Positions 30,473 to 56,954 are shown, counted from the first letter of the stretch. The stretch is 64,000 nt of DNA from Elusimicrobiales bacterium (GCA_028688015.1 JAQTZB010000006.1:107381-171380), one strand, 5' to 3'. A program made the numbers and translations. The notes: a model not told the origin generated them from the letters alone.

Positions 30473-30500
30473 TTGACAGTTCTCAAGTCAATGTTATATT
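30473..30500 (+). promoter_or_regulatory. Candidate sigma70-type promoter for module A (TTGACA-16 nt-TATATT)
   Basis: ttgaca at 30473-30478 and tatatt at 30495-30500, in the AT-richer 250-bp gap upstream of the 1621-aa gene. Confidence 0.45.
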
Positions 30501-30605
30501 CTTGCGAGGTATTGCTTTTTCAGGCATCTTAGGGGACTACTTAATTTTCAGTTGTTGTGCGTCTGAGTGCGGCCGTTTTACTGCGGACCGCTATACGGAG
30601 GGACT

Positions 30606-33600
30606 ATGCGTTCATTCACCAAACTGGCGTTAGCCGCGGCTCTGGCAATTTTCTCGTCGGGAGGAGCCATCGCCGCGACCACCTCGCTCACCGTCCACGT
30701 GGCGGACCCTGACGGCGGGAACCTGCCCGGGGTCAAAGTGGCCGCGATACAGTGGGGCATGAACGGGCCTTCAACCTACACCCTCCTGGGCCTGACCGAC
30801 GCCTCCGGAAACAAGGTCTTCAACCTGGAACAGCAGATGGGCTACAGCATTTACGTGACCTCCCACGGTTACTCGCCCACCGTCGCCGAGCAGTTCAACG
30901 ACCCGGAATACAACCCCAACCGGAGTTTCTGGCCCTCCGACGGCACCCCGCTTACCGCCGAGTTCACCTTGACCCCCGGCCTGACCGGAGTGGGCAAGAT
31001 AACCCAGGCCTTTATCAACGCAACGCCCAACAAGGTGCTGATGGGCGGCATGTACAACATGCTCGCCCAGTTGCCCGGCGCCTCCGGCATGGTCTTCACC
31101 AACGGCGCCGGCGCCGGCGTCCTGGAAATGGAGAACGTTCCTTTCGCCCAGGCCAACACCTATAACATCGGCCTCTACGATCCGGAGCTTAACCGCGGCA
31201 TCGGCCGCAACGTGATGAGCGACCTGGGCGACGGCAGCGCCGAATACCCCGGCGTGCCCGCACTCAACTATCCCGCCCTCGACTTCAACCAGTCCATCCC
31301 GCCCTCGCGCGTGGAGACCAACACCCAGCCCGGAGGCTCTTCGGCCGGTTCAGCGGCCGGAGTCAGCGTGGAAGGCGTGATCCATGAATTGAACTATACC
31401 ACCGCTACCGTGAACCATACCGGCTTAGGCATCAAGGCCTGCGTCTCCGGCAACAACTGGAGCAGCTGGGCCAACACCGACGAGAACGGCCGCTTCCAGC
31501 TTTACGGCCTGAACCCCGGCACCACTTATTATTTCAACGTCATGGGCGGCTGCTCCTGGACCCAGAACGGCCCCGGCGCGTGCTATGGCCCGTACAGCAG
31601 CGCGGAGTATAACTCCCAGGATATCTGCCTCCAGAACCCCGCTTCCATAAACACCAACGACCTCCTCTACGTAAGCTCGGACGTAGCCTACCACAGCATC
31701 AAGCTGGTCCGCATGCCCCGCAGCAACGGTCAGATCCGCGTCTACGTGCGCTCCTCGTCGGGGTATACCATCCCCAACGCCAACGTAAACGTGAACCCGG
31801 ACGGCACGCCCTGGCCGCTGTTCGCCAACAGCTGCGACACGCCGAACGACTTCTCTAAATTCACCAGCAACCCCGGCTTCTCCAATGCCAGCGCCAACAC
31901 TTCCGCCACCGGCTACGCCCTCCTCGACGGCCTGCCGAGCGGCAACTACAACGTTAACGTCTGGACGCCCTTCTCCAATAGCAGCAGCGCCAACGGGCCC
32001 ACCGGCTTCAACGCCGGCCCCGACGGTATTTTTGGCAACTGGAACGCCCCGCAGTGGCAGGCCATGCACTGCAATACCCCCGGCGGGGACGACTACCGCG
32101 TGACGATAGATACCACGGCCGTTCCGACCATGAAGATCTACGACAGCAGCGGCACCCTGCTGAACCTGTCCTCCATTACCTATATAGTGGACGCGGGCGC
32201 GGCCAATACCTCCGGCGAGGTGCGCGGCGTCCTGCGGTTCCCCTCCGCGGCGGACCTGCTTAGCGCCCCAATAATGATCACCCTCTACCCGCAGTGCATG
32301 GAGGGCCCCTGCGGCTCCGGCAACTTCGCCGTTATAGACGGCTCCGGTTCCGCCAGTTACCCTTACACCATCCACGTGGCCAGCGGCACCGACTACTGGA
32401 TGAACATCAACTCTCCCGGCTGGGGCCGCCTGCAGAACAACGGCAACAACATGATCACCCTGCAGTCCACCGGCACCGTGGTCCTGAACATGGACTTCGC
32501 GCCGGCCGGCACCGTCAGCGGCACGCTCTACAAGCCCGACGGCACCATCTTCACCCCCGCCGCCAACCAGTACATCCACGTAGGCATGAACAGCGACCGC
32601 GGCGGCAGCGGCACCCAGCTGCAGAGCGACGGCTCCTTTGAGCTCAAGGACGTTCTCTCCGGCGAAGTCCGCGCTTATGTCAGCGCTGGCGGCATGGGCG
32701 AGTTCAACTACGCCCTGCCCACCCCGGCGCCCACCGTCACCGTCACGGCCGGCAGCACGGTCACGCTGAACATCAAGCTGGTCAACGCGGTGTACGTGGG
32801 CGTGCAGCTTAGCACGGCCATGGTGCCCGACCCCTCCATCATCGCCAGCGACTACGACGCGCTGATAGGCTTCAGGGCCATTCCCGTGCCCGCAGGCACG
32901 GTGCTGAAGGGAGAGACGCTTAAGGAAATGCTCTTCGGCAAGGGCGACAACGACAATCGCCTGACTTTCGCCAACCCCACCGGCATGATGGACGGCGGCC
33001 CCTGCGGCAACAGCTGGCCGGGCGGCTTCTGCGCCAAGAGCGTCCCGTCGCCCGCCGTCTACGACTTCTACCTGATGCGCTCCGGCGACTTCGGGGACAT
33101 GTCTTCTTCCACCGCCGCGGCCGTGGCCGCTTACCCGCACTTCACGCTGCTGACCTCCAGCAAGAACGTGATAGTGGACAGCGACCACATCGTGGCCAGT
33201 TCCGTGCGGCCCGGCATGAACGGCGGCACGCTGGCGGACGGCATACCGGTGAACCTGACCCCCGCCACGGACCTCTCCGGGCGCGGCAACGCCGTGCTGG
33301 CCGGCAATGTGAGCGCGGACAACTTCTTCCGTGAAACGGACTACGTCGCCCTCAACGGAGAGCTTGACGACTTCATGGAGTATCTGCCGCTCGTGACGCT
33401 CTACGGTTCCGACGGCGGCTTCAAGGCGGCCGGCATAGTGGTGCCGCCCCCCGCGTTCATACAGCAGCACGACCAGGACTTCAACATCGCCTACGCGCAG
33501 GGGTACCAGACGTTCAAGGCCCTGCTGGACCTGGCCGGCACGTTCGGCTTCGAGATCCGCGGCCTGGCGCCGTCCACCTGCTTCACCGCGGTGGTGACCA

Positions 33601-35471
33601 CGCCCAATTACCCGCCTTACCAGACCAGGGCCTGCACCGGGGTGAACAACTCCACCACCACCATCACGGTGGACCTGGACTCCGCCGTGGGCGCGGGCGC
33701 CACGGTACAGGGCGTGGTGACCAGCACGGCCGGCGTGCTGTTGCCCAACGCCTCCGTGGAACTGCTCAGTGAGGGCTCGGACGCCCGCACCGCGGTTACT
33801 AACTCCTCGGGCGCCTACAGCTTCCTGGGCCTCGCCCCGGGCAATGTAAAGATCAGGGCCTCCATAGACGGTTACGCCTCCGGCGAGACCGAAGAGGACC
33901 TGACCGGCAGCAATACCTATACCAAGAACCTGGCGCTGACCGCGGCCGGCGGCTCGCTCACCGGCACCGTCTACTCGCAGAAGCTGCCCTACGCCAAGGT
34001 GCAGGCCGGCGCGCAGATAGTGGCCTACAACGATACCTATAATGGCACGCACCCCGACTCGCCGCTGCCGTTGATCAGGACCAAGACTGGCGCCGACGGC
34101 AGTTATACCATCTCCGGGCTCATTCCCGGGGACGTCTACAAGGTCTTCCTGAAGGTGCCCGGCAAGTACACGCTGAGCGTCTCCACCCCGGCCGCTGCCG
34201 GCGTGGTGTCCGGCGTGGACTTCACGATGCTGCCCAAGCCGCTCGATATCGAAGTCTTCGCCAAGAAGACCGAGACCGACTTCGAGTTCACGGTGCTCAA
34301 CCCGCAGGACTTCAAGAGCGGCTGGGTCGGCTGGAGCGCTTCGCCCTTCGACGGGGCCTCCGCCTCCACGGTCACGCTGACGCAGCTCTCCAGCGGCGAG
34401 ATGAACGGCAAGATCCCGCTCTCGGCCCTGACCTCCGGCGTCACCTACGTGCTGCAGGGGGTGGCCAAGTCCTACTCCGGCCGCCAGGTCATCCGGGAGA
34501 TCCTGTTCGGCAGCGACTACAAGGGCAATGCCAAACAGCAGATAGACGACGCCATCCTGGGCGACGATACGGACGACGGCTTCGGCCGCAAGAATAACGA
34601 GGTCCCGATGGACCGCAGCGGCGACGACCCGTCGGGCATCATGTTCCCGCCCGGCGCGGTGCAGGCGTCCACCGGCTCCGTGCCCACCTGCTCGTTCAAG
34701 GGCGAGGACAAGGACTCCTCCGCGGTGGCGGCCAAGGTGGCGGCCCTCGGGGCCGACGCGTTCGCCGGCGACCTGTACACGGTGGAACTGGCCAGCGTCA
34801 CGCACAACGAGAACAAGTCCATCGAGATCACGCTGGCCTACGACAAGAGCACCGCTAACCTCGACGACCTGTCCGTGGCCCGCTACAACGACGGCACCGG
34901 CAAGTGGGAGCAGCTCTCCGGGGTGGCCACGGTCAACCCGCTGAAGGGCACCGTGAAGGTGAAGCTGCGCACGCTGGCTTCCGTCCTGTCGGTCCGGCCC
35001 GGCCGGTACCAGGCTAACCGCTTCGACGGCAAGCAGTACCGCGTCTCCGCCGTCGGCAGCAGCACCTCCGGCACGTTCGCCGTGGTGCGGCCGTCCATAG
35101 CGGGCAACGCCTACGCCGGCTCCAAGCTGAAGGTGTTCAACTACCCGAACCCCTTCAACCTCAAGAGCAAGACCGTAAATAACAGCCAGGGCGCGGCCCT
35201 GTCCGGCACTACCGAGGGCACCGTGATCCACGTGGAGGTTCCCGCCGGCAACGGCGGCGAAGGCCATGTGCGCATCTACACGCTCGCGGGCGAGCTGGTG
35301 AACGACCTGCGGACGAACTTCACCGCCGGCGCGCATAACTACGTGCTCTGGGCCGGCAACAACAAGGCCGGGCAGCCCGTGGCAAACGGCGTCTACTACG
35401 GCGTGGTAGAACTGGCCGGCAAGTCGCCGGACCGCGAGGACGCCACCTTCAAGATGGTGGTCGTGAAATAG
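30606..35471 (+). CDS. Giant secreted surface protein (1621 aa): CarboxypepD_reg/Ig-like beta-sandwich repeats plus a T9SS type-A-like C-terminal sorting domain
   Basis: The ATG at 30606 is preceded by ggaggg. Signal peptide MRSFTKLALAAALAIFSSGGAIA. Repeated units of the type GVVTSTAGVLLPNASVELLS...TNSSGAYSFLGLAPGNVKIRAS. The last ~110 aa read KVFNYPNPFNLKSKTV...IYTLAGELV...WAGNNKAGQPVANGVYYGVVEL...FKMVVVK, which fits the TIGR04183/FlgD-Ig-like CTD pattern. Confidence 0.85.
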   Translation: MRSFTKLALAAALAIFSSGGAIAATTSLTVHVADPDGGNLPGVKVAAIQWGMNGPSTYTLLGLTDASGNKVFNLEQQMGYSIYVTSHGYSPTVAEQFNDPEYNPNRSFWPSDGTPLTAEFTLTPGLTGVGKITQAFINATPNKVLMGGMYNMLAQLPGASGMVFTNGAGAGVLEMENVPFAQANTYNIGLYDPELNRGIGRNVMSDLGDGSAEYPGVPALNYPALDFNQSIPPSRVETNTQPGGSSAGSAAGVSVEGVIHELNYTTATVNHTGLGIKACVSGNNWSSWANTDENGRFQLYGLNPGTTYYFNVMGGCSWTQNGPGACYGPYSSAEYNSQDICLQNPASINTNDLLYVSSDVAYHSIKLVRMPRSNGQIRVYVRSSSGYTIPNANVNVNPDGTPWPLFANSCDTPNDFSKFTSNPGFSNASANTSATGYALLDGLPSGNYNVNVWTPFSNSSSANGPTGFNAGPDGIFGNWNAPQWQAMHCNTPGGDDYRVTIDTTAVPTMKIYDSSGTLLNLSSITYIVDAGAANTSGEVRGVLRFPSAADLLSAPIMITLYPQCMEGPCGSGNFAVIDGSGSASYPYTIHVASGTDYWMNINSPGWGRLQNNGNNMITLQSTGTVVLNMDFAPAGTVSGTLYKPDGTIFTPAANQYIHVGMNSDRGGSGTQLQSDGSFELKDVLSGEVRAYVSAGGMGEFNYALPTPAPTVTVTAGSTVTLNIKLVNAVYVGVQLSTAMVPDPSIIASDYDALIGFRAIPVPAGTVLKGETLKEMLFGKGDNDNRLTFANPTGMMDGGPCGNSWPGGFCAKSVPSPAVYDFYLMRSGDFGDMSSSTAAAVAAYPHFTLLTSSKNVIVDSDHIVASSVRPGMNGGTLADGIPVNLTPATDLSGRGNAVLAGNVSADNFFRETDYVALNGELDDFMEYLPLVTLYGSDGGFKAAGIVVPPPAFIQQHDQDFNIAYAQGYQTFKALLDLAGTFGFEIRGLAPSTCFTAVVTTPNYPPYQTRACTGVNNSTTTITVDLDSAVGAGATVQGVVTSTAGVLLPNASVELLSEGSDARTAVTNSSGAYSFLGLAPGNVKIRASIDGYASGETEEDLTGSNTYTKNLALTAAGGSLTGTVYSQKLPYAKVQAGAQIVAYNDTYNGTHPDSPLPLIRTKTGADGSYTISGLIPGDVYKVFLKVPGKYTLSVSTPAAAGVVSGVDFTMLPKPLDIEVFAKKTETDFEFTVLNPQDFKSGWVGWSASPFDGASASTVTLTQLSSGEMNGKIPLSALTSGVTYVLQGVAKSYSGRQVIREILFGSDYKGNAKQQIDDAILGDDTDDGFGRKNNEVPMDRSGDDPSGIMFPPGAVQASTGSVPTCSFKGEDKDSSAVAAKVAALGADAFAGDLYTVELASVTHNENKSIEITLAYDKSTANLDDLSVARYNDGTGKWEQLSGVATVNPLKGTVKVKLRTLASVLSVRPGRYQANRFDGKQYRVSAVGSSTSGTFAVVRPSIAGNAYAGSKLKVFNYPNPFNLKSKTVNNSQGAALSGTTEGTVIHVEVPAGNGGEGHVRIYTLAGELVNDLRTNFTAGAHNYVLWAGNNKAGQPVANGVYYGVVELAGKSPDREDATFKMVVVK

Positions 35472-35494: not shown

Positions 35495-36400
35495 ATGAAC
35501 CATAAACTTATCCTTTCTGCGGTTCTTGCTCTGGCGGCCGCCTCCGCGCAAGCCGCCGGCCCCGGTACCACCGGCGCCAGCTTCCTCAAGGTGGGAGTGG
35601 GCGCCAGGGAGCTCGCCATGGGTTCGGCCGCCAGCGTCCTCACCGAGGGCGCCGGCGCCGCCAACTGGAACCCGGCGAAGCTCGCCGGGCTCAAGGGCAA
35701 GCACCTCAGCGCCAGCTACAACATGCTGTTCATAGACGAGTCCCAGGGCTACCTGGGCTTCGCCTCGGAACTTAAGGACGACAAGGGCGTGATCGGCGGC
35801 GGCCTGAACTACCTGACCGTCGGAGACATAGAGCGGCGCGCCGGTGACACCGAGACCCCGGATTCGCTGTTCGACAGCAACAACATGGCGCTGGCCTTCA
35901 CCTACGCCCGGGCCGAAGTGAAGCCGGGCCTGGCGCTGGGCGCCAGCCTGAAGTATATCAGCCAGGACCTGGACACGCAGACAGACAAGGCCGTGGCGCT
36001 GGACCTGGGCTCGACCTACAAGCTCAACGACATCTACACCGCCGCCTTCGTGATCCAGAACCTCGGCGGCAAGGTGGGTCCCGACAACCTCCCGCTGCTG
36101 TTCAAGGGCGGCGTGGCCCGCGCCTTCCTCGACGGCAAACTGGCCGCCGCGGCGGATGTGGACTGGCTGGCCTACGACGAGCGCTTTTACCTGGACCTGG
36201 GCGCGGAGTACCAGCTCAACAAGAGCCTGGCCTTCCGGGCGGGCTACCAGGTCGGGCGCGCGCAGGACGAGCTGGGCGGCCTGACCGGCCTCGGGGCCGG
36301 CCTGGGCCTTAAGTTCGACCGCTTCTCCCTGGACTACGCCTATGTGCCTTTCGGCGACCTGGGAGATACGCACAGGATGACTTTGGGTTTCAACTTCTGA
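35495..36400 (+). CDS. PorV/PorQ-family-like outer membrane beta-barrel (module A)
   Basis: Signal peptide, then GASFLKVGVGARELAMGSAASVL...ANWNPAKLAGL. This matches the PorV N-terminal signature (A.FL.I....R..gMG.a......NPA). Alternating amphipathic strands and a terminal aromatic (LGFNF). Starts 23 nt after the cargo stop. Confidence 0.7.
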   Translation: MNHKLILSAVLALAAASAQAAGPGTTGASFLKVGVGARELAMGSAASVLTEGAGAANWNPAKLAGLKGKHLSASYNMLFIDESQGYLGFASELKDDKGVIGGGLNYLTVGDIERRAGDTETPDSLFDSNNMALAFTYARAEVKPGLALGASLKYISQDLDTQTDKAVALDLGSTYKLNDIYTAAFVIQNLGGKVGPDNLPLLFKGGVARAFLDGKLAAAADVDWLAYDERFYLDLGAEYQLNKSLAFRAGYQVGRAQDELGGLTGLGAGLGLKFDRFSLDYAYVPFGDLGDTHRMTLGFNF

Positions 36401-39307: not shown

Positions 39308-39335
39308 TTGACATCGCACCCCAATGTAATATAAT
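39308..39335 (+). promoter_or_regulatory. Consensus sigma70-type promoter (TTGACA-16 nt-TATAAT) for module B, embedded in the module A terminator hairpin
   Basis: ttgaca at 39308-39313 and tataat at 39330-39335. The FecR-2 ATG lies 70 nt downstream with AAGGAG 6 nt before it. Confidence 0.5.
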
Positions 39336-39353
39336 TGGGGTGCGATGTTTTTT
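39312..39353 (+). terminator. Strong rho-independent terminator after module A
   Basis: 14-bp perfect stem catcgcaccccaat (39312-39325) / attggggtgcgatg (39334-39347), 8-nt loop, then tttttt (39348-39353). Confidence 0.85.
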
Positions 39354-51100: not shown

Positions 51101-54100
51101 AGGGCTTTAGCCTCGCGGTGGGTACCATGGGCTTCGTCTCGGTGGGCGGCAAGTACGGCGGTTTCTACGGCATGTACCGCTACCGCCAGACCAACCTGCT
51201 GGCCATCAACCCGACGCTTACAGTGAACGTGGCCAGCGGCTCCGCCTCCGTGCCCTTCGAGGGCGTGCGGGTGGCGCTGATCCCGTTCTCCGCCACCGGC
51301 GGCATCGACGTCTCCGGTTCCACGGTCTCGTTCACCAACGCCTCCGGCGCGGTCTCTTTCCAGGTGCCGGCCGGCAAGCAGTATTTCATAGCGCTGGACC
51401 GGCAGGGCTTCCGCCCCGCCATCAGGGACCAGCTGATGGACCCGTACGGCAGTTACTTCGTGCAGCTCAACTCCGACATGACGAAGAGCTACACGCTGTC
51501 GCCGCGTGCCGCGGCCGACGCCTACTACCCCCTGACGGTCAGGATCTCTTCCGCCGCCGCCAGGGACTTCGTGATGGCCGAGGTGTTCTTCACGGCTACC
51601 GGCGAAAAGGCGGCCTACGGCATAGCGCAGGTGCCCGCCGGGGTGACGGCCACCACCCTTACGGTGACCAACCTCCCGCCGGTCTCAGCGGCCGGCGCCT
51701 ACACGCTGGGCGTGACAATACCGGGCCGCAGCCTGGCGCGCAGCATCGTGATGGACGCCCTGTTCCCGCAGACCAGCTCGTATCAGGTCAGCATGTCCAC
51801 CATGGCCGGCGCGGTAGCCGCCACCGGCGGCTTCGAGGTGGGGGCTTCCACCACGCCGCCTACAGTGGAAGGCGTAGTGCGCAACTTCCGCACCTGGGCC
51901 CCCATAGAACAGGTCCGCGTGCGGCTCTATAACCGCACCGAGCCCTGCAGCAGCGGCATCTGCGAGCATAATAATTACGAGACGCTGACCGACGTGAACG
52001 GCAAGTTCTCGTTCTACAACGTCGTCAGCACCGCCGGCGCTTACAACATCATGGCGCAGAAGGCCGGCTACAAGCGCGGCTGGGCCCCGCAGTTCAACGT
52101 GTTCCCCGGCAGCCTCAGTACCAGCTACCGCGAGTTCCAGCTGGAGGAGGCCACGTACACGCTGCGCGGCTACCTGCGCTACCGCGACGTGCCGGTACCC
52201 AACGCCGACGTGATGGTCTACGGCGACTATAACCCGTACAGCGGCGGCTCCGACAGCTACCGGAATAGCCGCGGCATGGATACCGACGCCAGGACCAAGA
52301 CGGCCGCCGACGGCTCGTTCGTGTTCAGCACGACCACGGCCAACGGTCTGCCCGACGGACAGCTGCGCATGCAGGCGGCTTTCTTCGGCAACTGGATGGA
52401 CCTCAACGAGGGCAACAACCAGAACTGGGCCAGCGTGGACGCCGACGACGTGCGCATAGTCATCTCCAGCCAGGGCGCCACCGGGGTCGCCAACTCGAAC
52501 TGCACCAAGGGCCGCGTCTGGAAGCTGCGCGCCGACACCGGCGCCTGCCAGAGCCTGGCCTCGGGCGAGATCAACTTCAACATCATGCCCCCGTCGCAGA
52601 ACGACTACGCCACGCTGGCCGGCTCCATCACCTTCGTGACCTCCTACACGGTCACGGCAACCAACCCGCTGGTCATCAGCACGGCGCTGCCTATCACGGT
52701 GATGGCCATGGAGGAGTGCACCGACTGCAAGAGCCGCTCGATGGGCTTCGCGGTGGTCAGCGGCACCTACACGGTGAACTACGCCACGTACAGCATCACG
52801 CTGTCCACCGGCATCGCCTACTACACGCGCGTCACCTCCAACGAGTGGGGCGAGGTCAGCTCTTTCGACGACCGCGCCGACTTCCGCTCTACCATGACGA
52901 CCTCCGTCAGGATGCACTTCACCGTGACCAAGGCCGGCAAGCTGACCGGCGTGGTCAAGATGCCGGACGGCTCCAACTATAAGCCAAACACCAACGGCAG
53001 CAGCGACGATCCCTCGTACCACAAGATCGACGTTAATGTTGACGGCGAGAACGTCAGCGTGAACGAGGGCTGGAACGTGGACGAGTACGGCGCTTTCGAG
53101 TTCCCGAACCTGGCGCCCGGCCTCTATTCCATCAGGCTCCGGCCCGAGGGCCAGGGCTTCCGCTGGGCGGCCCCGACCCTGGCCAACGTGTCGGTGGTGG
53201 CGGGCAAGACCACACAGGTGACCCTGCGGCTGGAGGACGGCCTCTACGTGCAGCCGCAGATCATCGGCCTGCCGGAGATCTCCACGCCCACCTGGGCCTA
53301 CATGATGGTCCCTGTGCCCTCCGGCACCGAGATGAACCAGACGAAGATCACGGATATGTTCTTCGGCCAGGACGTCTTCTCGTTCGAGTACAGCACCAGC
53401 ACCCAGGTCTGGCAGAAGCGCGTGATGCAGGTGGGCCAGTACGACTTCTACCTGGTGCTGGGCGCGCGCTACAACCCGGGCATGGGGGACTCTGGTGACC
53501 CCGAGAGCTATGACCACTTCGGCAACTTCATCGGCAAGGTGAGGGGCTTCAACGTGCAGCGCAATGACGCCACTCCGAACCTGGGCACCGAGTTCCAGCC
53601 CATACCGGTAAACGTGCTCGGGTCGCTCGGGCAGGAGACGTTCGAGGGCACCATAGACGGCGACCGCCTCTACACCGACGCCGACCTGCGGCGCATCTTC
53701 TCGAACATCGAGGAGCTGTTCGAGTCCATCCCGGCCGTGATGATCTACGACGCGGCCGGCGACCTGCGCGGCTATACCGCCGGCCTGCCGCGGCAGGCCG
53801 ACTTCCCGCTGTTCTGGAGCAAGATAGGCTCCCAGGACCTGCCGGGAATGAGGTCCTACCTGGGCTCGCACGACAACCGCTTCATGGTTGCGGGGCTGCC
53901 GCCCGGGCGCTATACCGTGGTGTTCAACAACCCCAACTACCCGCCTGTCGCCAAGGAGATAGACATCCCGCTGGCCGCCGGCTACTCGTTCGACTTCGAC
54001 GAACAGCGCGTCCGCGTGGGCACGGTCTACGGCACGGTCAGGAGCACCGTGCCCGTGGCCGGGGTCTACCCGCCGCTGGGCAACGCCACGGTCTACCTGA

Positions 54101-55881
54101 AGCACAAGACCGTGGAGAAGTTCGCCGAGACGGCCGTCGACGGCACCTTCACGTTCGACAACATGCCCGGCGGCATCTACCGGCTGGAAGTCTCGCGCGA
54201 AGGCTTCGTCAAGGCAGGCGAGAAGACCTCGCTGGCGGGCAACGACTCCGTGCGCCTGGACCTCTACCTGACGCCGTCGCAGACCAACATGACCGGCAAG
54301 GTATTCATGAGCAAGTTCCCGTCGCCGGTCACCAGGTCGGGCGTCAAGATCGTGGCGTACGACGAGACCTTCAACGTCGAACACCCTACCGAGTACCTGC
54401 CCAAGATCGAGGCTACCACCAACGACGCCGGCGAGTACGAACTGGCGGGCGTGGTCCCGGGGCATAACTACAAGGTCACCGCGTTCTTCAGCGGCAAGCA
54501 GACCTACACCCTGGACGTGGGCAGCGAAACCGTTACGGAGGGCGTTACCTACCTGCCCGACATCGTGATGCGCGACGTGCCCCCGCAGATAATGGTGAAG
54601 GTGCGCCGCTCGGCCGACACGCTGAACAAGGCCGATGTGACCATCAGGTCCCCCAAGGCCCTGGTAACGACCCCGGTCTGCAAGGTGAACCCCGGCGAGG
54701 TCTACGTGGCGACCTCGGCGGTCAGCCTGGCGCTGGTGCCCGGCACCAACAATACGTACGCGGGCCAGTTCACCATCTCGCAGCACCAGCCCTTCTACAA
54801 CGTCTACGTCGCGGCCGGCGACGGCTCGAGCAGGATGGAGAAATCCGTCACGTTCAGCCCTAACAACTCGGCCAAAACGGAGCAATACATCCAGGACGAG
54901 GCCATCCAGGGCGGCGAGGTCCAGATGGACAAGGAGTCAGAGGAGTATTCCGGCATCGAACTGGATACCGGCGGCCTGGCCTACGACCAGAGCGGCGGCG
55001 CCAGCGCCTCCTCCTTCAGGCCTTCCGAGGCCGACGGCGGCCTCGTGGGCGGCTTCTTCAGCTCGCTCCCGTCGGTGCGCACGGTCAAGACGGCCAAGGG
55101 CAACCTGAGCCTGACGCAGGCCATCACCGACCTGATGGCGTCCGAGATCTACAACATGAGCCTCGACAACGCCTCGGCCAACAAGGAGTTCACGCTGACC
55201 CTGAAGTACGACAAGGACAAGGCGGCGGACGGCGCCAACCTGCGCATTTACCAGTACAACGAGACGACCGGGGCGTGGGAAGAGGTTCCCGGCAACTACA
55301 CCACCGACCCGATGCTGGGCGTGCTCTCCGTGGGCGTGGTAAGCCTGACCGACGCCAGCGCGGGCGCAAGCGCGGCGGCCACGCCTTACGGCCGCAAGCG
55401 CATGGGCATGAGCGCCGTGGTCAACGGCCGTTACGTGCCCTCCGCGGCGGGCACGTCCCAGAGCGGGCGCTTCGCGGTCTTCACCGCGCGGCCTTCGCCG
55501 AGCGTAGCCTACACGGGCGCGGACTACGAGGTGGCCAACCTGCCGAACCCCTTCAACCTGAAGGATAAGACGGTTACCAACCTCGAGGGTACGGCGGCCT
55601 TCAGCGGCGCGACCACCTACGTGACGCGCGGCACGCTGATCAAGTACCACCTGCCGCCCGGCAAGTCGGGCAGCGTGAAGTTCGTGGTCTATAACCTGGC
55701 CGGCGAGAAGGTGCGCACCATCAGCGACGGCGTGCGCGCCGGCGGCGGCATGTATTACTCGGAGTGGGACGGCAAGAACGACAACAACCAGGACGTGGCA
55801 TCGGGCGTCTACTTCCTGCTGACCTACGTGGACGGCGAGAAACTGGGCGCCAAGGCCCACAAGCTGGCGGTCATAAAGTAA
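42169..55881 (+). CDS. Giant secreted surface protein (4570 aa): beta-propeller (SBBP-like) repeats, FN3-like modules, CarboxypepD_reg/Ig-like repeats, T9SS type-A-like CTD
   Basis: A single uninterrupted 13.7-kb ORF with a signal peptide (LLTAWAAGAALAG). Dozens of units resemble GNIYVSGYT....LLLLKFSPAGQ and GAVYAAGYTERYD...LWLRKYAPDGAELW. Three FN3-like modules are present. The C-terminal third has PEGA/CarboxypepD_reg-like units (GTVRS...ATVYLKH...DGTFTFDNMPGGIYRLEVSREGF). The protein ends NLPNPFNLKDKTV...VVYNLAGEKV...WDGKNDNNQDVASGVYFLL...HKLAVIK. Confidence 0.9.
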   Translation: MRKIKNIFINLLGAGLLTAWAAGAALAGFTGDFSLPEGANFDAGDSDNPSEVAYFNNNVYVVGLSSPTGGFLIRYSTNGVMQTSGTLPGVGLSGVAVNSNGVYAVGTSGAPSRLVIAKFDPVSLILVSSKTYTGNANPATAADIDLSSSGDAYVVGTDLTMKEVVFGMYDSGLNTLSESGIIRTSDYDTGTGVTVDGTNVYFAGNSLLGSATSFILQKYSLTDYLSVMYASATLAGISVDEHELGGKIDASPLTHDIYAALNASHTEMKLARFSQSLNLTGTQPFGAAAYAGGNNLVVDSTGNVLMTGSINDGTGNDFPVLLKYSPTLVFISSAASVQPYGYEAAAVANNPLNGDSYVTGVYFSDGTGSEPGWDIRTVKFSGAAAPVMRQISGTVTYAGTYDPSARLTVWVSTSADFRGVPFFVNIPAPMASQPYAITNVPAGTYYMALTASINWAVADSTDPWGVHGQLGTPTPIDVTAGDAAGVDVVMIDGNSVPNPWSLESLLPATVNCLSTFNLGGECSVNGATTFATGIATDLSDNRYLLLTNLTDSAIVKFDSLGDVVSSVTVKYATFNGLKFNAYNGDLYVAAQGPVSGVRVYRYSSALALVSSVTVAGYQGARQLDFDAAGNVYTVSTVDNVSTGYDIRVVKFPADLSFVMDDWSEASIGPDQGYGIFVDGSDVFVAGIRRPASADEVVVIKLDAMSALSTMGTGAAATPPFTFQEGQGFNNIRVAADSSGVYAAYNADLQTSTRTVVYRFDRADLAAGYSSATVAGASLFGDLKLNAGYVYVAAADMNQARVTKYSAASFSPVASKTTNVLPYGLAPGALAFGVVGTASEVFLGGVIPDGMGGVTGGAAELPLIDGPVPSEVVPQDYVEGTNNLLMTPDGVGGAYMVFDSTVGPNELRMVYVRRVDASNQTLWAYDVTQTAVTGINELYALPDGSGGLYAGWFTGGHAYAQHYDIDGNILWDINGVRISSGPVDGGQFVANPQGGFFAVFGYIQSDVNTSLTAQSVRSDGNCNWPAYGPCAAAAGTPIPAVDFAGEGSGVAGIDGSIMFFWGGDTDADGHLQINGAKLDSSGALAWSPTVKSLYTAGTSADLGYDLEAAADGAGGAYVLWSSSASNARALYAQRYNAAGGTDSPWATPVQLTGASLPANDYLSLSLASDDEGFAVIYSSSSMNGSSEVRVVRGQAGLNQLAAGFSLGGNLLGSTDDGAHALVYGGTVYHIAWQQHASLPPPGNNHLVAYQTMAKDGTFEYTPYSSVGVSSDCVKLAISTSADGALVGWMEKTGGGTETTTPRLLDMPLVVGPVSVYLSTESAAPGSYVAGQPAPALLLDVRTVAGQATLASLRVHVNPDGPYTDVEAVSVYSDDDQDGVWDSRHTLLSSAAVTGAYVDLAFPAGTIVNTTPGPVFLALTPAQSAAGNSVNLALDDASALTTSGEMQLQGFYPVVSQPASVTIQQAVTDLATEPGENLNSVSLSWTYPQDIAAGHYLIKYSTDPADLAGPGFPSIETPIEAAASGYPGSALVESLPAVEATVAGVTRVFPYHFALWLYNGASTSPVSNLAQNLYFPLASAQAGDAALASSSEMTLNPNTSVRSVHLGLDRYTAFTFYGSPEAFLTLRTPAGAYYYKPALGVLDLKDLAVAPGGFSYVLAQVDADAVALKIAPNGDVLWVRNLGPEAPKAVAFGGGAVYAATELTNGSGDTDVKIYKLDAASGGATLYSYQYDSSAEYGRPSNDTVSSLEYASDPLRGYLYVAGSVGENYSYGSPRRGGIFKLADTGAQLSTSTAYVAGSWPVRHLNPSGDRSDTLRVRVNGSGDLLAAGFESRYDLNQGVNVWLNKYSASGAQLFPQPARFNNPQSNWDDVPTGLDYDNFGNIYVSGYTDMWNLGQGYNLLLLKFSPAGQFTDSRIYDSGHSQDGWGSDVFVSSDNYASVSGLFLAGGNFGVYSLPIGGSAAGASAQFFSAMEGPYTGSADVMWNYPAALPAGSTYYIQYSADPAPVWNRAAAQIVSPAGPKYPGEMEFRTVGGLATLRYPDQSAAETRGLLYQFKVWIASGGAVTELPTAQTFARTPQAFDNTRYFGRERLSYLSGVSMPPSALTVDGSYVYHAFSGRADGSANVGFGLRKYNADQYLEWTKFFNHRLNRSYQVAGSTRDASGNFYIFGSQYPVAEVIAGPEDYIPGKDAWIAKLDPNGDLLWSFTSDVSGLGLMDEITDAAVEGSYLYAVGVASTSSTGLDAFARKYDLTPANGPAVVWTSALLNGSASEDDYAYGVAVGTGAVYMAGTLKNATKDMFIRALGKADGSPVGALITHDSGYPDEGYDLAITTTTPPYLYLGGALGKLEDIYGTGYEMLDAALLQFTLDGALARTITYDGKDAADNDAVYAVKADASGVIVAGYEATAAEGKNTIIAKYDNDPAGSVPLWSRSLNLVDDGDPYTVNYGDDEAYGLDQGPDGRVYLPVSLWGNNPGFYYFPEPNFNVAAYPGPVPGSVRLEWMNRDYLVTGSYFKVQYSTFAAAAWSPDSAQFTLPVDYDIYEGMSVERSVYGLDTGRDQYGNSVGPVYYFKVWAVAGEGGQLIAASPRPRAGAPLPGEPVLVSAVPASARAGEGWALESVAMYPNEAKLFSMGAPVYGYGDYEKEFPGVARDSSGNLYTLANMNWNGSDGFVVKKFASGMMPLWTRYYAPGEWYQAKANRMAADAAGNLYITGYERSMASETGRDIFVLKLGASGAVWKTLLDGEGSDDTGYGVALDADGNVFVAGSVYTSAQYKNAYVAKLGPDGSVLSTNTYNGTANGDDEAYGVAVRDGEVFLAGSSNETSLGSQFLMARFAAADLAALGASAIGDDASGAYEEAAFDVAAGSAGVVYFSGQLYEEESYSLDAAVVKSSADLTALDWAEPLRFNSQANGADSARAIALDAGGAVYAAGYTERYDINQDKNLWLRKYAPDGAELWTQEFHANPVQGGDPYAMGPSSDQGFSLAVGTMGFVSVGGKYGGFYGMYRYRQTNLLAINPTLTVNVASGSASVPFEGVRVALIPFSATGGIDVSGSTVSFTNASGAVSFQVPAGKQYFIALDRQGFRPAIRDQLMDPYGSYFVQLNSDMTKSYTLSPRAAADAYYPLTVRISSAAARDFVMAEVFFTATGEKAAYGIAQVPAGVTATTLTVTNLPPVSAAGAYTLGVTIPGRSLARSIVMDALFPQTSSYQVSMSTMAGAVAATGGFEVGASTTPPTVEGVVRNFRTWAPIEQVRVRLYNRTEPCSSGICEHNNYETLTDVNGKFSFYNVVSTAGAYNIMAQKAGYKRGWAPQFNVFPGSLSTSYREFQLEEATYTLRGYLRYRDVPVPNADVMVYGDYNPYSGGSDSYRNSRGMDTDARTKTAADGSFVFSTTTANGLPDGQLRMQAAFFGNWMDLNEGNNQNWASVDADDVRIVISSQGATGVANSNCTKGRVWKLRADTGACQSLASGEINFNIMPPSQNDYATLAGSITFVTSYTVTATNPLVISTALPITVMAMEECTDCKSRSMGFAVVSGTYTVNYATYSITLSTGIAYYTRVTSNEWGEVSSFDDRADFRSTMTTSVRMHFTVTKAGKLTGVVKMPDGSNYKPNTNGSSDDPSYHKIDVNVDGENVSVNEGWNVDEYGAFEFPNLAPGLYSIRLRPEGQGFRWAAPTLANVSVVAGKTTQVTLRLEDGLYVQPQIIGLPEISTPTWAYMMVPVPSGTEMNQTKITDMFFGQDVFSFEYSTSTQVWQKRVMQVGQYDFYLVLGARYNPGMGDSGDPESYDHFGNFIGKVRGFNVQRNDATPNLGTEFQPIPVNVLGSLGQETFEGTIDGDRLYTDADLRRIFSNIEELFESIPAVMIYDAAGDLRGYTAGLPRQADFPLFWSKIGSQDLPGMRSYLGSHDNRFMVAGLPPGRYTVVFNNPNYPPVAKEIDIPLAAGYSFDFDEQRVRVGTVYGTVRSTVPVAGVYPPLGNATVYLKHKTVEKFAETAVDGTFTFDNMPGGIYRLEVSREGFVKAGEKTSLAGNDSVRLDLYLTPSQTNMTGKVFMSKFPSPVTRSGVKIVAYDETFNVEHPTEYLPKIEATTNDAGEYELAGVVPGHNYKVTAFFSGKQTYTLDVGSETVTEGVTYLPDIVMRDVPPQIMVKVRRSADTLNKADVTIRSPKALVTTPVCKVNPGEVYVATSAVSLALVPGTNNTYAGQFTISQHQPFYNVYVAAGDGSSRMEKSVTFSPNNSAKTEQYIQDEAIQGGEVQMDKESEEYSGIELDTGGLAYDQSGGASASSFRPSEADGGLVGGFFSSLPSVRTVKTAKGNLSLTQAITDLMASEIYNMSLDNASANKEFTLTLKYDKDKAADGANLRIYQYNETTGAWEEVPGNYTTDPMLGVLSVGVVSLTDASAGASAAATPYGRKRMGMSAVVNGRYVPSAAGTSQSGRFAVFTARPSPSVAYTGADYEVANLPNPFNLKDKTVTNLEGTAAFSGATTYVTRGTLIKYHLPPGKSGSVKFVVYNLAGEKVRTISDGVRAGGGMYYSEWDGKNDNNQDVASGVYFLLTYVDGEKLGAKAHKLAVIK

Positions 55882-55889
55882 AGGGCGAA

Positions 55890-55918
55890 CCGGGCCATGG
55901 CCGCGCGCCATGGCCCGG
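55890..55918 (+). promoter_or_regulatory. GC-rich 12-bp hairpin between the giant gene and its PorV-like gene (possible attenuator or RNA-processing site)
   Basis: ccgggccatggc (55890-55901) / gccatggcccgg (55907-55918) with a 5-nt loop. No U-tract follows. Confidence 0.35.
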
Positions 55919-55968
55919 GGAATCCCCCGATTTGGTTCTCTTCGGTTCGCGGTTACAGAGGTACTTTT

Positions 55969-56898
55969 ATGAGAAAAGCCATTTTAACACTGCTGCTGTC
56001 GGCGCTGCCCGCGGCCGCCTTCGCCTCCGGCGCGGGCACCACGGCGGCGCCCTTCCTGAAGGCGGCCCTGAGCCCGCGTGCGGTTGCGGTAGGCGGGGCG
56101 TTCAGCGCCCTGGCCGACGACTCCGGCGCGGTCTTCGTGAACCCGGCCGGCCTGGTGCAGTTCGACAAGCGGGAGGCCGCGCTGGACTTCAGCACCTACC
56201 TGCAGGACGCGAAGATGGGTAACCTCTCCTACGCGGGCGACGTCAGGGACAACCGGTTCGGCCTGGGCGTGACCTTCATGACGGTGGGGGGGATAGAGCG
56301 GCGCGGGCTGGCGGATGCCACCGGCCTCATCCCGGAGGCCGGCAGCTTCGACGCCAGCGACATGGCCGTCACGCTGGCCTTCGCCAAGAAGGACTTCTCG
56401 CCCGAGTTGCTCAACGGCCTGGACGGCGGCTTCTCGGCCAAGTTCATCCGCTCCTCTATCGACGACGAGAGCGCTATCGCGCTGGCGGTCGACGCCGGCG
56501 CCATCTACCGCGCTACCGAAAAGATCAAGTTCTCCCTGGTCCTGCAGAACCTGGGCACCAAGATGAAGTTCGTGGACGAGTCCGACCCGCTGCCGCTGGT
56601 GATCCGCACCGGCGGCTATTACGCCGTCTCGGAGCGCTTCAAGGTGGCCGGCGAACTGGCCGGCTGGCTGCAGGACGAGAAATTCTACCCGTCCCTGGGG
56701 GGCGAGTACTGGTTCCGCGACGCCCTGGCGCTGCGCGGCGGCTACAAGTTCGGCTACGACACCGCCAACCTGGGCGCCGAGGTGGGGCTCAGCCTCGGCT
56801 TCGGCGTGAAGGTGCAGGGCCTCGGCGTGGATTATGCCTTCCTGCCCTTCGGCGACCTGGGCAGCATCCACCGCTTCGGCGTGTGGATGCAGTTCTAA
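55969..56898 (+). CDS. PorV/PorQ-family-like outer membrane beta-barrel (module B)
   Basis: The ATG at 55969 gives MRKAILTLLLSALPAAAFA. This is followed by the AAPFLKAALSPRAVAVGGAFSAL...FVNPAGLVQF signature and a terminal VWMQF. Paralog of 35495..36400. Confidence 0.7.
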   Translation: MRKAILTLLLSALPAAAFASGAGTTAAPFLKAALSPRAVAVGGAFSALADDSGAVFVNPAGLVQFDKREAALDFSTYLQDAKMGNLSYAGDVRDNRFGLGVTFMTVGGIERRGLADATGLIPEAGSFDASDMAVTLAFAKKDFSPELLNGLDGGFSAKFIRSSIDDESAIALAVDAGAIYRATEKIKFSLVLQNLGTKMKFVDESDPLPLVIRTGGYYAVSERFKVAGELAGWLQDEKFYPSLGGEYWFRDALALRGGYKFGYDTANLGAEVGLSLGFGVKVQGLGVDYAFLPFGDLGSIHRFGVWMQF

Positions 56899-56917
56899 AG
56901 AGAACCGGGCGATAACA

Positions 56918-56954
56918 AAGAAGAAGGGCCGCAGCTGCGGCCCTTCTTCTTTTT
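56918..56954. terminator. Bidirectional rho-independent terminator
   Basis: The near-perfect palindrome aaagaagaagggccgcag/ctgcggcccttcttcttt is followed by tt, between convergent genes. Confidence 0.8.

What the first reader, a model, noticed from the sequence alone, without database searches (positions are those of the whole stretch)
30473..56954. Two tandem paralogous four-gene modules: giant CTD-bearing surface protein + dedicated PorV-like barrel + unassigned ~406-aa barrel + secreted FecR-domain protein
Seen in sequence:
- Module A (30606-39269) is cargo (1621 aa), PorV-like (301 aa), barrel (407 aa), FecR-domain (540 aa).
- Module B (39406-56898) is FecR-domain (481 aa), barrel (406 aa), cargo (4570 aa), PorV-like (309 aa).
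- Every component has a full-length paralog in the other module.
- The cargo-to-PorV adjacency is kept in both modules (23-nt and 87-nt gaps). The barrel and FecR genes are adjacent in both (3-nt and 20-nt gaps), but their order is inverted.
- Each module has its own TTGACA-type promoter candidate and its own terminator.
- Both cargos end in N[YL]PNPFNLK.KTV ... Y.LAGE.V ... W.G.N..... VA.GVY[YF], the pattern of the T9SS type-A C-terminal sorting domain.

Established knowledge:
- In Bacteroidota T9SS, one PorV shuttle serves many CTD cargos.
- Cargo-dedicated outer-membrane partners are known only for type-B CTDs (SprB/SprF-like pairs).
- FecR domains normally sit in membrane-anchored anti-sigma factors, next to an ECF sigma factor and a TonB-dependent receptor.

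None of those partners, and no porK/L/M/N, sprA/sov or porU, is in this window.

Inference: each giant adhesin-like protein carries its own private set of envelope partners. These would be a shuttle-like barrel, a second barrel and a periplasmic FecR-fold protein. That would make a cargo-dedicated export or anchoring unit, which I cannot match to a described system.
Basis: partly seen in the sequence, partly recalled or inferred. Interest (0 to 1): 0.8.

Follow-up and report, generated by a model that had tools for sequence, protein, structure and literature searches.

The report
Elusimicrobial giant-surface-protein envelope operon, duplicated
Two tandem copies of a four-gene outer-envelope operon (giant surface protein, PorV/PorQ-type anchor barrel, new 16-strand barrel, secreted FecR-like protein) are conserved across Elusimicrobiota, a phylum with no described type IX secretion system, and no paper in the searched library describes it.

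Summary
All eight ORFs, their sizes, gaps, promoters and terminators are as described. Each protein type has a full-length paralog in the other module (25-35% identity, E 2e-34 to 4e-84).

The taxonomic frame is wrong: the window is Elusimicrobiota, not Bacteroidota (96% match to MAG GWC2_64_44).

Module B's order, FecR-like > barrel > giant CTD protein > PorV/PorQ-type barrel, recurs in 80 species-level genomes:
- FecR-like next to barrel: 88/88.
- Cargo or PorV-like next to barrel: 76/85.
- CTD gene followed by PorV-like gene: 57/58.

Module A is a lineage-specific, rearranged duplicate.

Family tests:
- PorV/PorQ family membership is met (NCBIfam cutoff; solved PorV, E 1e-27).
- The CTD is type-A/FlgD-Ig-like. 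It is sub-threshold in the window, but relatives pass.
- The ~406-aa protein is a 16-strand barrel of an unassigned family.
- The FecR-like protein lacks an anti-sigma part. No ECF sigma, TonB receptor or T9SS core gene is nearby.
- The FecR-like/barrel pair also occurs alone and beside CHASE2 enzymes.

Best reading: the surface protein is held by its own PorV/PorQ-type barrel, and the second barrel plus FecR-like protein form a surface-signalling-like relay. Export by that pair is the main rival. The kind is a new variant of a known one, and no function has been tested.

The parts
30473..30500 (+). Promoter-like site of module A (TTGACA-16-TATATT, with TG before the -10 hexamer)
30606..35471 (+). 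A_cargo, 1621 aa. It has a signal peptide, CarboxypepD_reg-type beta-sandwich domains and a C-terminal CTD. The whole protein aligns with the conserved C-terminal core of B_cargo.
35088..35468 (+). CTD of A_cargo (last ~125 aa). It is FlgD-Ig / T9SS type-A-like and sub-threshold for both models.
   Evidence: FlgD_ig 23.7 bits (cutoff 27); TIGR04183 15.7 bits (cutoff 23); PorZ C-terminus E 1.7e-4.
35495..36400 (+). A_porV, 301 aa, a PorV/PorQ-family outer-membrane barrel
   Evidence: NF033709 163.7 bits against a cutoff of 90. Pfam PorV 29.2 bits.
36420..37643 (+). A_barrel, 407 aa (TTG start), paralog of B_barrel. Unassigned beta-barrel family.
37647..39269 (+). A_FecR, 540 aa. Secreted FecR-domain protein with no anti-sigma domain and no transmembrane part.
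39308..39353 (+). 16-bp hairpin plus T-run that terminates module A. A perfect TTGACA-16-TATAAT promoter for module B (39308-39335) is embedded in the same hairpin.
39406..40851 (+). B_FecR, 481 aa. The N-terminal beta domain (residues ~20-167) resembles the PupR/anti-sigma periplasmic domain. A helical linker follows, then a beta-rich C-terminal domain (223-475) with no known relative.
40872..42092 (+). B_barrel, 406 aa. Predicted 16-strand outer-membrane barrel of a new family. Conservation is concentrated in the long loops.
42169..55881 (+). B_cargo, 4570 aa. It has a signal peptide and a lineage-variable N-terminal extension (SBBP repeats). The conserved core and the CTD follow.
51166..55878 (+). 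Conserved ~1570-aa core of the cargo (B residues ~3000-4570), shared with A_cargo and with every ortholog examined
55501..55878 (+). CTD of B_cargo (last ~125 aa)
   Evidence: FlgD_ig 29.3-31.7 bits (cutoff 27); TIGR04183 15.6 bits (cutoff 23); PorU C-terminus E 1e-5.
55969..56898 (+). B_porV, 309 aa, a PorV/PorQ-family barrel
   Evidence: NF033709 167.4 bits against a cutoff of 90. PorV 6h3i_F, E 8.5e-8; family profile, E 1.1e-27; identical NCBI protein named 'PorV/PorQ family protein'.
56920..56954 (+). Perfect 15+15 palindrome followed by TTTTT; terminator of module B
   Evidence: read from the sequence

Best explanation
This is the Elusimicrobiota-wide envelope operon FecR-like > 16-strand barrel > giant surface protein > PorV/PorQ-type barrel. 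It is present here as the ancestral copy (module B) plus a rearranged, lineage-specific duplicate (module A).

Proposed working:
1. All four products are exported by Sec.
2. The giant protein ends in an Ig-like C-terminal domain homologous to the T9SS type-A/FlgD-Ig CTD.
3. That domain docks non-covalently on the PorV/PorQ-type barrel encoded directly downstream, which holds the protein on the cell surface. PorQ holds PorZ and PorV holds PorU in the same way.
4. The second barrel and the soluble FecR-like protein form an outer-membrane/periplasm pair that works like a TonB-independent cell-surface-signalling relay. The conserved surface or lumenal loops of the barrel sense the state of the surface protein or something it captures.
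5. The FecR-like protein passes this on to inner-membrane CHASE2-type enzymes (cyclase or phosphatase).

Shown: gene content, paralogy, phylum-wide synteny, family homologies and predicted folds. Inferred: CTD-barrel docking, surface location, and the signalling role of the FecR-like/barrel pair.
For: Organism and conservation:
- Barrel, FecR-like and PorV-like homologs come almost only from Elusimicrobiota.
- Among 92 barrel genes in 80 genome loci, a FecR-like gene is adjacent in 88/88 assessable cases, and a cargo or PorV-like gene in 76/85.
- A CTD-bearing ORF is followed within 600 nt by a PorV-like gene in 57/58 cases, including stand-alone pairs whose bodies are unrelated.

Anchor pair:
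- The PorV/PorQ family cutoff is passed, and the family profile hits solved PorV at E 1e-27.
- The CTDs match the C-termini of PorU and PorZ, the two T9SS proteins that PorV and PorQ hold on the membrane (PMC12365241).
- Relatives reach the TIGR04183 cutoff (34.2 and 24.3 bits against 23).

Relay pair:
- The N-terminal domain of the FecR-like protein superposes on the PupR cell-surface-signalling domain and on anti-sigma factor BDI_1681 (E 6e-6 to 1e-5).
- A CHASE2 cyclase sits directly upstream of the FecR-like gene in 4 loci and directly downstream of the PorV-like gene in 4 more. A CHASE2-SpoIIE gene lies next to the barrel in one further place, seen on two contigs (L083/L084). A cNMP-binding gene lies inside one module.
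- FecR-domain/CHASE2 adjacency is already known in Burkholderia (PMC5192318).
- The pair occurs without cargo. One natural FecR-like/barrel fusion exists.
- Barrel conservation is concentrated in long loops: 36% of loop positions are at least 90% conserved, against 14% in strands and 0% in turns.
Against: - No CHASE2 gene lies in this window or in most Elusimicrobiales loci.
- The barrel has only 2-5-residue, unconserved periplasmic turns. A periplasmic FecR-like partner therefore has little to bind unless it enters the lumen.
- The window's own CTDs are below the TIGR04183 cutoff.
- No route across the outer membrane for a 1621-4570-aa protein is identified under this reading.
- No interaction was modelled or measured.
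- PorV/PorQ relatives belong to the FadL-like superfamily, so they could be lipid or small-molecule channels.
Confidence: 0.42

Rival explanations
1. Export/assembly unit. The 16-strand barrel is a dedicated outer-membrane conduit and the FecR-like protein is its periplasmic targeting or chaperone partner. Together they thread the Sec-exported giant protein, and perhaps other CTD proteins, across the outer membrane. The PorV/PorQ-type barrel then receives the CTD. This would be a minimal CTD pathway that does not depend on T9SS.
For: - T9SS is reported absent outside the FCB phyla (PMC11285876, PMC4793230), and no core gene lies near the module. Some other route is therefore needed.
- The pair is tightly linked with the cargo across the phylum, and it was duplicated together with the cargo in this window.
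- Some barrel family members carry an N-terminal beta-rich domain, an Ala/Pro-rich linker and then the barrel, which resembles an autotransporter.
- The conserved loops could act as a plug.
- Stand-alone CTD/PorV-like pairs lack a FecR-like/barrel pair of their own, as expected if they share one conduit.
Against: - The pair occurs with no cargo or PorV-like gene nearby and beside CHASE2 signalling enzymes.
- The only characterised role of the FecR fold is signalling.
- The barrel has no POTRA or other known translocator feature, and no specific structural match (best query-normalised TM-score 0.47).
- Three loci carry two FecR-like/barrel pairs for one cargo.
Confidence: 0.28
2. Ordinary T9SS cargo. 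The genome carries a complete T9SS elsewhere, and the giant proteins are normal type-A cargos. The PorV-like genes are extra PorV/PorQ paralogs. The FecR-like/barrel pair is a functionally separate neighbour.
For: - The CTD is homologous to T9SS CTDs.
- PorV/PorQ family membership is met.
- I could not scan the whole genome for SprA, PorU or GldKLMN.
Against: - The literature places T9SS only in FCB phyla (PMC11285876; none outside Bacteroidetes among 2,484 genomes in PMC4793230).
- Neither PorV-like protein reaches the PorV or PorQ equivalog cutoffs.
- The 57/58 one-to-one pairing of CTD gene and barrel gene differs from the one-shuttle-many-cargos design.
- The 76/85 linkage with the FecR-like/barrel pair across a phylum is not a chance neighbourhood.
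Confidence: 0.1
3. Nutrient-capture unit, analogous to a polysaccharide-utilisation locus. The giant protein binds or degrades an external polymer while tethered by the PorV-like barrel. The 16-strand barrel is the uptake channel, and the FecR-like protein senses the imported product.
For: - The barrel resembles substrate-specific channels only in a general way (CymA, AlgE, OccK).
- The loops are conserved, as in specific channels.
- Trans-envelope signalling linked to FecR-type proteins accompanies uptake barrels in Bacteroidota PULs (my own knowledge).
- CHASE2 is associated with the pair.
Against: - No catalytic or carbohydrate-binding domain was found in either cargo.
- No periplasmic or inner-membrane transporter genes are conserved beside the module.
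- The conserved 1,570-aa core is unusually constant for a substrate-binding protein.
Confidence: 0.1

Closest known systems
T9SS attachment-complex pairs PorZ-PorQ and PorU-PorV (Porphyromonas gingivalis)
   Same: - A PorV/PorQ-family barrel is paired with a protein that carries an Ig-like CTD of the type-A kind.
- The window CTDs and their relatives score best against the C-termini of PorU and PorZ.
[quoted passage not shown]
   Different: - The phylum is outside FCB, and no T9SS core gene is known or seen nearby.
- The barrels are ~300 aa and fail the PorV and PorQ equivalog cutoffs.
- Pairing is one barrel gene per CTD gene, directly downstream (57/58).
- The partner is a 1.6-4.6-kaa structural protein, not a sortase or an LPS carrier.
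- The pair is linked to a FecR-like/barrel pair that T9SS lacks.
Type-B CTD cargo with its PorP/SprF-family barrel (SprB-SprF and PorP-like pairs)
   Same: The gene for a dedicated outer-membrane barrel lies directly downstream of its giant surface-protein gene, and anchoring is by non-covalent binding to a cognate carrier (PMC9143113, PMC12365241).
   Different: - The barrel here is PorV/PorQ family, not PorP/SprF.
- The CTD is type-A/FlgD-Ig-like. CHU_C scores only 14.8-17.9 bits against a cutoff of 27.
- The organism is not Bacteroidota.
Cell-surface signalling FecA-FecR-FecI / PupB-PupR
   Same: - A FecR (PF04773) periplasmic domain is present, with a structural match to the PupR C-terminal signalling domain.
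- It is encoded next to an outer-membrane barrel.
   Different: - The FecR-like protein is soluble. It has a signal peptide but no cytoplasmic anti-sigma domain and no membrane anchor.
- There is no ECF sigma factor.
- The barrel has 16 strands, with no plug, no TonB box and no STN domain.
- The FecR-like protein has an extra ~250-aa C-terminal domain of unknown fold.
Secreted FecR-domain protein plus CHASE2 sensor operons (Burkholderia BiofilmReg; COG4254)
   Same: A Sec-exported FecR-domain protein is encoded beside an inner-membrane CHASE2 enzyme (PMC5192318). This is seen here in 8 Elusimicrobiota loci and in one further place outside the 80 genome loci, found on two contigs (L083/L084).
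   Different: - There is no LysM domain.
- A dedicated outer-membrane barrel is always present.
- CHASE2 is facultative, and it is absent from this window.
Leptospira LipL45 / Lsa33 FecR-domain proteins
   Same: These are the best NCBIfam hits for both FecR-like proteins (E 5e-15 to 1.5e-11). They are secreted FecR-domain envelope proteins from a phylum without T9SS.
   Different: - Scores are far below the family cutoffs (55 against 420).
- The Leptospira proteins are lipoproteins. No lipobox is present here.

Membership tests
PorV/PorQ family (NCBIfam NF033709) | Whole-protein score at or above the curated cutoff (90 bits) | tested here: met
   A_porV 163.7 bits, B_porV 167.4 bits
PorV/PorQ family (NCBIfam NF033709) | Sequence homology to a structurally solved PorV | tested here: met
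   B_porV against 6h3i_F, E 8.5e-8. Profile of 27 family members against 6h3i_F, E 1.1e-27.
T9SS PorV or PorQ proper (equivalogs NF033710 / NF033711) | Score at or above the equivalog cutoff (250 / 220 bits) | tested here: not met
   PorV 84.6 and 67.1 bits; PorQ 99.2 and 129.6 bits
T9SS PorV or PorQ proper (equivalogs NF033710 / NF033711) | The same genome holds the SprA/Sov translocon, PorU and GldK/L/M/N | not testable with these tools
   - None of these genes lies in the 64-kb window or in the conserved flanks of 80 loci.
- No whole-genome scan was possible.
- The literature reports T9SS only in FCB phyla (PMC11285876, PMC4793230).
T9SS type-A C-terminal sorting domain (TIGR04183) | Domain score at or above the cutoff (23 bits) at the extreme C-terminus | tested here: inconclusive
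   - Window CTDs score 15.7 and 15.6 bits.
- Elusimicrobial CTDs from the same kind of CTD/PorV-like gene pair score 34.2 and 24.3 bits, and one reaches 58.7 bits against the PorZ C-terminus.
- Pfam FlgD_ig passes for B (29.3-31.7 against 27) but not for A (21.1-23.7).
T9SS type-A C-terminal sorting domain (TIGR04183) | The CTD is removed by PorU and the protein is attached to anionic LPS | not testable with these tools
   Needs proteomics.
Type-B CTD / PorP-SprF pair | A type-B CTD (CHU_C/TIGR04131) together with a PorP/SprF-family barrel | tested here: not met
   - CHU_C scores 14.8 and 17.9 bits against a cutoff of 27.
- The downstream barrels hit PorV/PorQ, not PorP/SprF.
- The 406-aa barrels hit nothing.
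FecR-type anti-sigma factor of a FecIRA/CSS circuit | FecR periplasmic domain (PF04773) | tested here: met
   53.6 and 61.6 bits against a cutoff of 24. Structural match to PupR 6ovk and BDI_1681 4m0n.
FecR-type anti-sigma factor of a FecIRA/CSS circuit | N-terminal cytoplasmic anti-sigma domain and a membrane anchor | tested here: not met
   The proteins start with a cleavable-type signal peptide, followed directly by the beta domain.
FecR-type anti-sigma factor of a FecIRA/CSS circuit | Adjacent ECF sigma factor and TonB-dependent receptor with a signalling domain | tested here: not met
   - Window flanks are CDF transporter, polyprenyl synthase, MenA, Tol-Pal, radical-SAM, HflK-like and LigA.
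- The neighbouring barrel is a 16-strand model with no plug or STN domain.
T5SS translocators (autotransporter / TpsB) | Autotransporter beta-domain or a POTRA-bearing Omp85 barrel | tested here: not met
   - No Pfam or NCBIfam hit for either barrel.
- Foldseek gives only generic barrels, with a best query-normalised TM-score of 0.47.
- hhalign against the PorV-like family gives probability 2.7%.

The most novel reading that the evidence does not exclude
The FecR-like protein and the new 16-strand barrel form the outer-membrane translocon of a minimal secretion-and-anchoring pathway for CTD proteins that does not depend on T9SS. Each cargo would have its own PorV/PorQ-type receptor. This would be either an evolutionary precursor or a stripped-down sister of type IX secretion, living in Elusimicrobiota and possibly Omnitrophota.
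Probability: 0.25. Interest if true: 0.9.

Novelty: new variant of a known kind. Interest (0 to 1): 0.66.

Why it matters
- The CTD/PorV-type interaction is regarded as part of the FCB-restricted type IX secretion system. Finding it as a strict one-gene-to-one-gene pair (57/58) across a different phylum suggests that CTD-to-FadL-like-barrel docking is an older, self-standing way to hold proteins on an outer membrane.
- This gives a simple system in which to study how PorV-type barrels recognise CTDs.
- The module also defines a new barrel family that is always partnered with a soluble FecR-like protein. That pair is either an unrecognised export route or a TonB-independent surface-to-periplasm signalling device linked to CHASE2 enzymes, whose ligands are unknown.
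- The module is nearly universal in Elusimicrobiota and carries a consensus promoter. It probably encodes a major, uncharacterised feature of that phylum's cell surface.
- It could be tested in the cultured Elusimicrobium minutum. A related MAG labelled E. minutum carries the operon (L070).

Tried and rejected
- Specific fold for the 406-aa barrel: Foldseek against PDB gave only generic 14-22-strand barrels, with a best query-normalised TM-score of 0.47. A profile against PDB sequences gave nothing. Pfam and NCBIfam gave nothing.
- The barrel as a divergent PorV/PorQ: hhalign probability 2.7%. Rejected.
- Cargo relatives with solved structures: none. blastp found no internal repeats in B_cargo.
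- C-terminal domain of the FecR-like protein: no PDB match. A weak resemblance of residues ~20-91 to the LapA/MpIBP retention module (NF033682, 21 bits against a cutoff of 50; 5ix9 over 69 columns) was noted. I judged it too weak to build on.
- A hidden TonB/ECF circuit or T9SS genes just outside the module: flanks of the window and of 80 loci hold housekeeping genes only (Tol-Pal, MenA, polyprenyl synthase, CDF transporter, thymidine kinase, epimerase, DUF4175).
- Annotation of the N-terminal extensions of some barrel homologs: nothing beyond one Fn3 and one FecR domain.
- Literature: no paper links Elusimicrobia with T9SS, PorV, FecR or an S-layer in a relevant way.
- A whole-genome search for SprA, PorU and GldKLMN could not be run.
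- Multimer modelling was not available.

Full report
**1. The observation**

- Module A: cargo 30606-35471 (1621 aa), PorV-like 35495-36400 (301 aa), barrel 36420-37643 (407 aa), FecR-domain protein 37647-39269 (540 aa).
- Module B: FecR-domain protein 39406-40851 (481 aa), barrel 40872-42092 (406 aa), cargo 42169-55881 (4570 aa), PorV-like 55969-56898 (309 aa).

The TTG start of the A barrel restores a signal peptide. An automatic gene call in the source assembly had removed it.

blastp confirms a full-length paralog for each type:
- cargo: 25% identity, all of A against B residues 3011-4570, E 4e-84
- PorV-like: 35%, E 4e-49
- barrel: 28%, E 2e-34
- FecR-like: 30%, E 6e-51

The window holds no further copies. 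All eight proteins start with a signal peptide, and all four barrels end in phenylalanine.

Expression signals:
- Promoter-like sites lie at 30473-30500 and at 39308-39335. The second is a perfect TTGACA-16-TATAAT.
- The second promoter sits inside the 16-bp terminator hairpin of module A (39310-39349).
- A perfect 15+15 palindrome plus TTTTT follows module B at 56920-56954.

**2. The organism**

The window has 60-69% G+C. Its flanks are housekeeping genes: SMC, PolA, Rho, PrfA, FolC, LptD-like, TolB-CpoB-Pal, MenA, a polyprenyl synthase, a CDF transporter, LigA and PurH.

Homologs of the barrel, the FecR-like protein and the PorV-like protein come almost only from Elusimicrobiota MAGs. The best genome match is Elusimicrobia bacterium GWC2_64_44, at 96% identity.

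The literature I could search places T9SS only in FCB phyla (PMC11285876) and found none outside Bacteroidetes among 2,484 genomes (PMC4793230). No paper links Elusimicrobia with T9SS, PorV or FecR.

**3. The parts**

*PorV-like proteins.* Both pass the curated PorV/PorQ family cutoff (164 and 167 bits against 90). Both fail the PorV and PorQ equivalog cutoffs. A profile of 27 family members hits the solved Flavobacterium PorV at E 1.1e-27.

*CTDs.* In the window they are weak:
- TIGR04183: 15.7 and 15.6 bits against a cutoff of 23.
- FlgD_ig: 23.7 and 31.7 bits against a cutoff of 27.
- The best NCBIfam matches are the C-termini of PorZ and PorU.

CTDs taken from the same kind of gene pair in other Elusimicrobiota do better. 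They reach the TIGR04183 cutoff (34.2 and 24.3 bits), and one reaches 58.7 bits on the PorZ C-terminus. The domain family is therefore homologous to the type-A CTD. The window copies are divergent members with a ~25-residue insertion after the PNPF strand.

*The ~406-aa protein.* It has no Pfam, NCBIfam or PDB relative.
- With a 37-sequence alignment, AlphaFold2 gives a confident 16-strand barrel (pLDDT 85, pTM 0.80).
- Foldseek finds only generic barrels.
- It is unrelated to the PorV-like family.
- Its conservation is unusual for a porin. In the long loops, 36% of positions are at least 90% conserved, against 14% in strands and none in the 2-5-residue turns.

*The FecR-like protein.*
- It has a clear PF04773 domain.
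- Its modelled N-terminal domain superposes on the PupR cell-surface-signalling domain and on anti-sigma factor BDI_1681 (E 6e-6 to 1e-5).
- It has no cytoplasmic anti-sigma part and no membrane anchor.
- Its C-terminal 250 residues have no known relative.

*The cargos.*
- They contain CarboxypepD_reg-type beta-sandwiches, and B also has SBBP repeats.
- They have no solved relatives.
- All orthologs share a ~1,570-aa C-terminal core. The N-terminal extension varies from nothing to ~3,000 aa.

**4. Conservation**

A scan of one genome per species with the barrel alignment returned 80 loci. I searched their six-frame ORFs with the window proteins.
- Among 92 barrel genes, a FecR-like gene is adjacent in 88 of 88 assessable cases.
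- A cargo or PorV-like gene is adjacent in 76 of 85.
- The order FecR-like > barrel > cargo > PorV-like on one strand extends to Endomicrobia and to an Elusimicrobium-labelled MAG, where barrel identity falls to 33%.
- CTD-bearing ORFs are followed within 600 nt by a PorV-like gene in 57 of 58 cases. These include stand-alone pairs whose protein bodies are unrelated to the window cargos.

Score comparisons show that module B is the phylum-wide ortholog. Module A (cargo > PorV-like > barrel > FecR-like) is a duplicate found in about ten related genomes.

No other gene family accompanies the module in more than about a third of the loci, and those that do are housekeeping neighbours. The refutation test 'chance adjacency' therefore fails, and so does the test 'TonB/ECF circuit next door'.

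**5. The module is two pairs**

The FecR-like/barrel pair behaves as a separable unit.
- A profile search of 1.84 billion representative proteins finds 495 barrel relatives.
- Contexts of distant members again show a FecR-like gene directly upstream.
- The pair occurs without cargo or PorV-like genes in an Omnitrophota MAG (FecR-like gene convergent with the barrel, not upstream) and in an Elusimicrobia MAG.
- One NCBI protein is a FecR-like/barrel fusion. Other members carry an Fn3 domain, or a ~300-550-aa beta-rich N-terminal domain joined by an Ala/Pro-rich linker.

Signalling genes recur next to the pair.
- A CHASE2 adenylate/guanylate cyclase lies directly upstream of the FecR-like gene in four loci.
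- The same kind of cyclase lies directly downstream of the PorV-like gene in four others.
- A CHASE2-SpoIIE phosphatase lies beside the barrel in one further place (two contigs, L083/L084).
- A cNMP-binding protein lies between barrel and cargo in one locus.

Adjacency of secreted FecR-domain proteins and CHASE2 sensors is already known in Burkholderia (PMC5192318). No CHASE2 gene lies in this window.

**6. Mechanism**

The best-supported step is anchoring.
- In T9SS, PorU and PorZ are held on the outer membrane by binding PorV and PorQ (PMC12365241).
- Here the CTDs resemble the PorU and PorZ C-termini.
- The barrels belong to the same family.
- The gene pairing is almost invariant.

I infer that each giant protein is held at the surface by its own PorV/PorQ-type barrel.

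For the FecR-like/barrel pair, I favour a cell-surface-signalling-like relay towards CHASE2 enzymes. The reasons are the fold of the FecR-like protein, the CHASE2 and cNMP neighbours, and the existence of the pair without cargo.

The main rival is that the pair is the export conduit. In its favour:
- It would explain how a Sec-exported protein of 1,600-4,570 aa crosses the outer membrane in a phylum without a described T9SS.
- It would explain why the pair was duplicated together with the cargo.
- It fits the autotransporter-like variants of the barrel.

The very short, unconserved periplasmic turns of the barrel are awkward for a purely periplasmic contact. They keep the export reading and a plug reading alive. 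Neither reading is shown.

**7. Comparison and novelty**

The unit works like a PorZ-PorQ or SprB-SprF anchoring pair joined to a FecA-FecR-like pair, but it is a member of neither system.
- The PorV and PorQ equivalog tests fail.
- The type-B CTD and PorP/SprF tests fail.
- The anti-sigma, ECF and TonB features of Fec systems are absent.

NCBI already names the parts 'PorV/PorQ family protein' and 'FecR family protein'. I found no description of the module, of its phylum-wide conservation, or of the barrel family. I rate it a new variant of a known kind. There is a one-in-four chance that it is a new export route.

**8. Limits**

- No whole-genome check for T9SS core genes was possible.
- No complex modelling was available.
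- There is no experimental evidence.
- Taxon labels come from MAG records. A few are labelled Clostridia or Deltaproteobacteria and are probably mis-binned.

Noticed in passing
window 39308-39353: The terminator hairpin of module A (16-bp stem plus T-run) contains, within its left arm and loop, a perfect TTGACA-16-TATAAT promoter for module B. One 46-nt element could therefore both stop and start transcription.
   Followed up: partly
window 28335-30455 (-) and 29349-30353 (+): The 706-aa minus-strand ORF is a polyprenyl-diphosphate synthase only in its last ~320 aa. Its N-terminal half is a shadow ORF lying over a plus-strand cation-diffusion-facilitator gene (ZnT8/FieF-like, E 3e-40), which sits directly upstream of module A.
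   Followed up: yes
window 24293-28318 (-): TolB, CpoB/YbgF, Pal and MenA lie just upstream of the module. The same neighbourhood recurs in about 20-26 related Elusimicrobiales loci, so the module sits beside the Tol-Pal cluster in this order.
   Followed up: partly
L065, L066, L068, L069 (upstream of the FecR-like gene); L072, L073, L074, L078 (downstream of the PorV-like gene); L083/L084: CHASE2-domain enzymes (adenylate/guanylate cyclase; SpoIIE phosphatase in L083/L084) flank the module or the barrel on either side in other lineages. In L086 a cNMP-binding protein lies between barrel and giant protein.
   Followed up: partly
P0471, P0363, P0384, P0399, P0409 (contexts L086, L087, L088): Some barrel homologs carry N-terminal additions. 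One has a whole FecR-like protein (a fusion) and one has an Fn3 domain. Others have a 300-550-aa beta-rich domain followed by an Ala/Pro-rich linker, an autotransporter-like layout of unknown meaning.
   Followed up: partly
L082 (GCA_026387595.1), L093 (GCA_034723835.1): Barrel homologs occur in two Candidatus Omnitrophota MAGs. In L082 the barrel is convergent with a 1,156-aa FecR-domain protein, and no cargo or PorV-like gene is on the 12-kb contig.
   Followed up: partly
L057, L063, L065, L067, L079: Extra stand-alone pairs of a CTD protein and a PorV-like barrel cluster beside the main module. Their protein bodies are unrelated to the window cargos, and their CTDs are more canonical, lacking the insertion.
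   Followed up: partly
window 55916-55929: A small G+C-rich hairpin lies in the 87-nt gap between B_cargo and B_porV. It could lower read-through into the barrel gene.
   Followed up: no
L011, L024, L042, L051: DUF4175 proteins of about 1,100 aa lie directly upstream of the FecR-like gene, on the same strand, in four loci.
   Followed up: no
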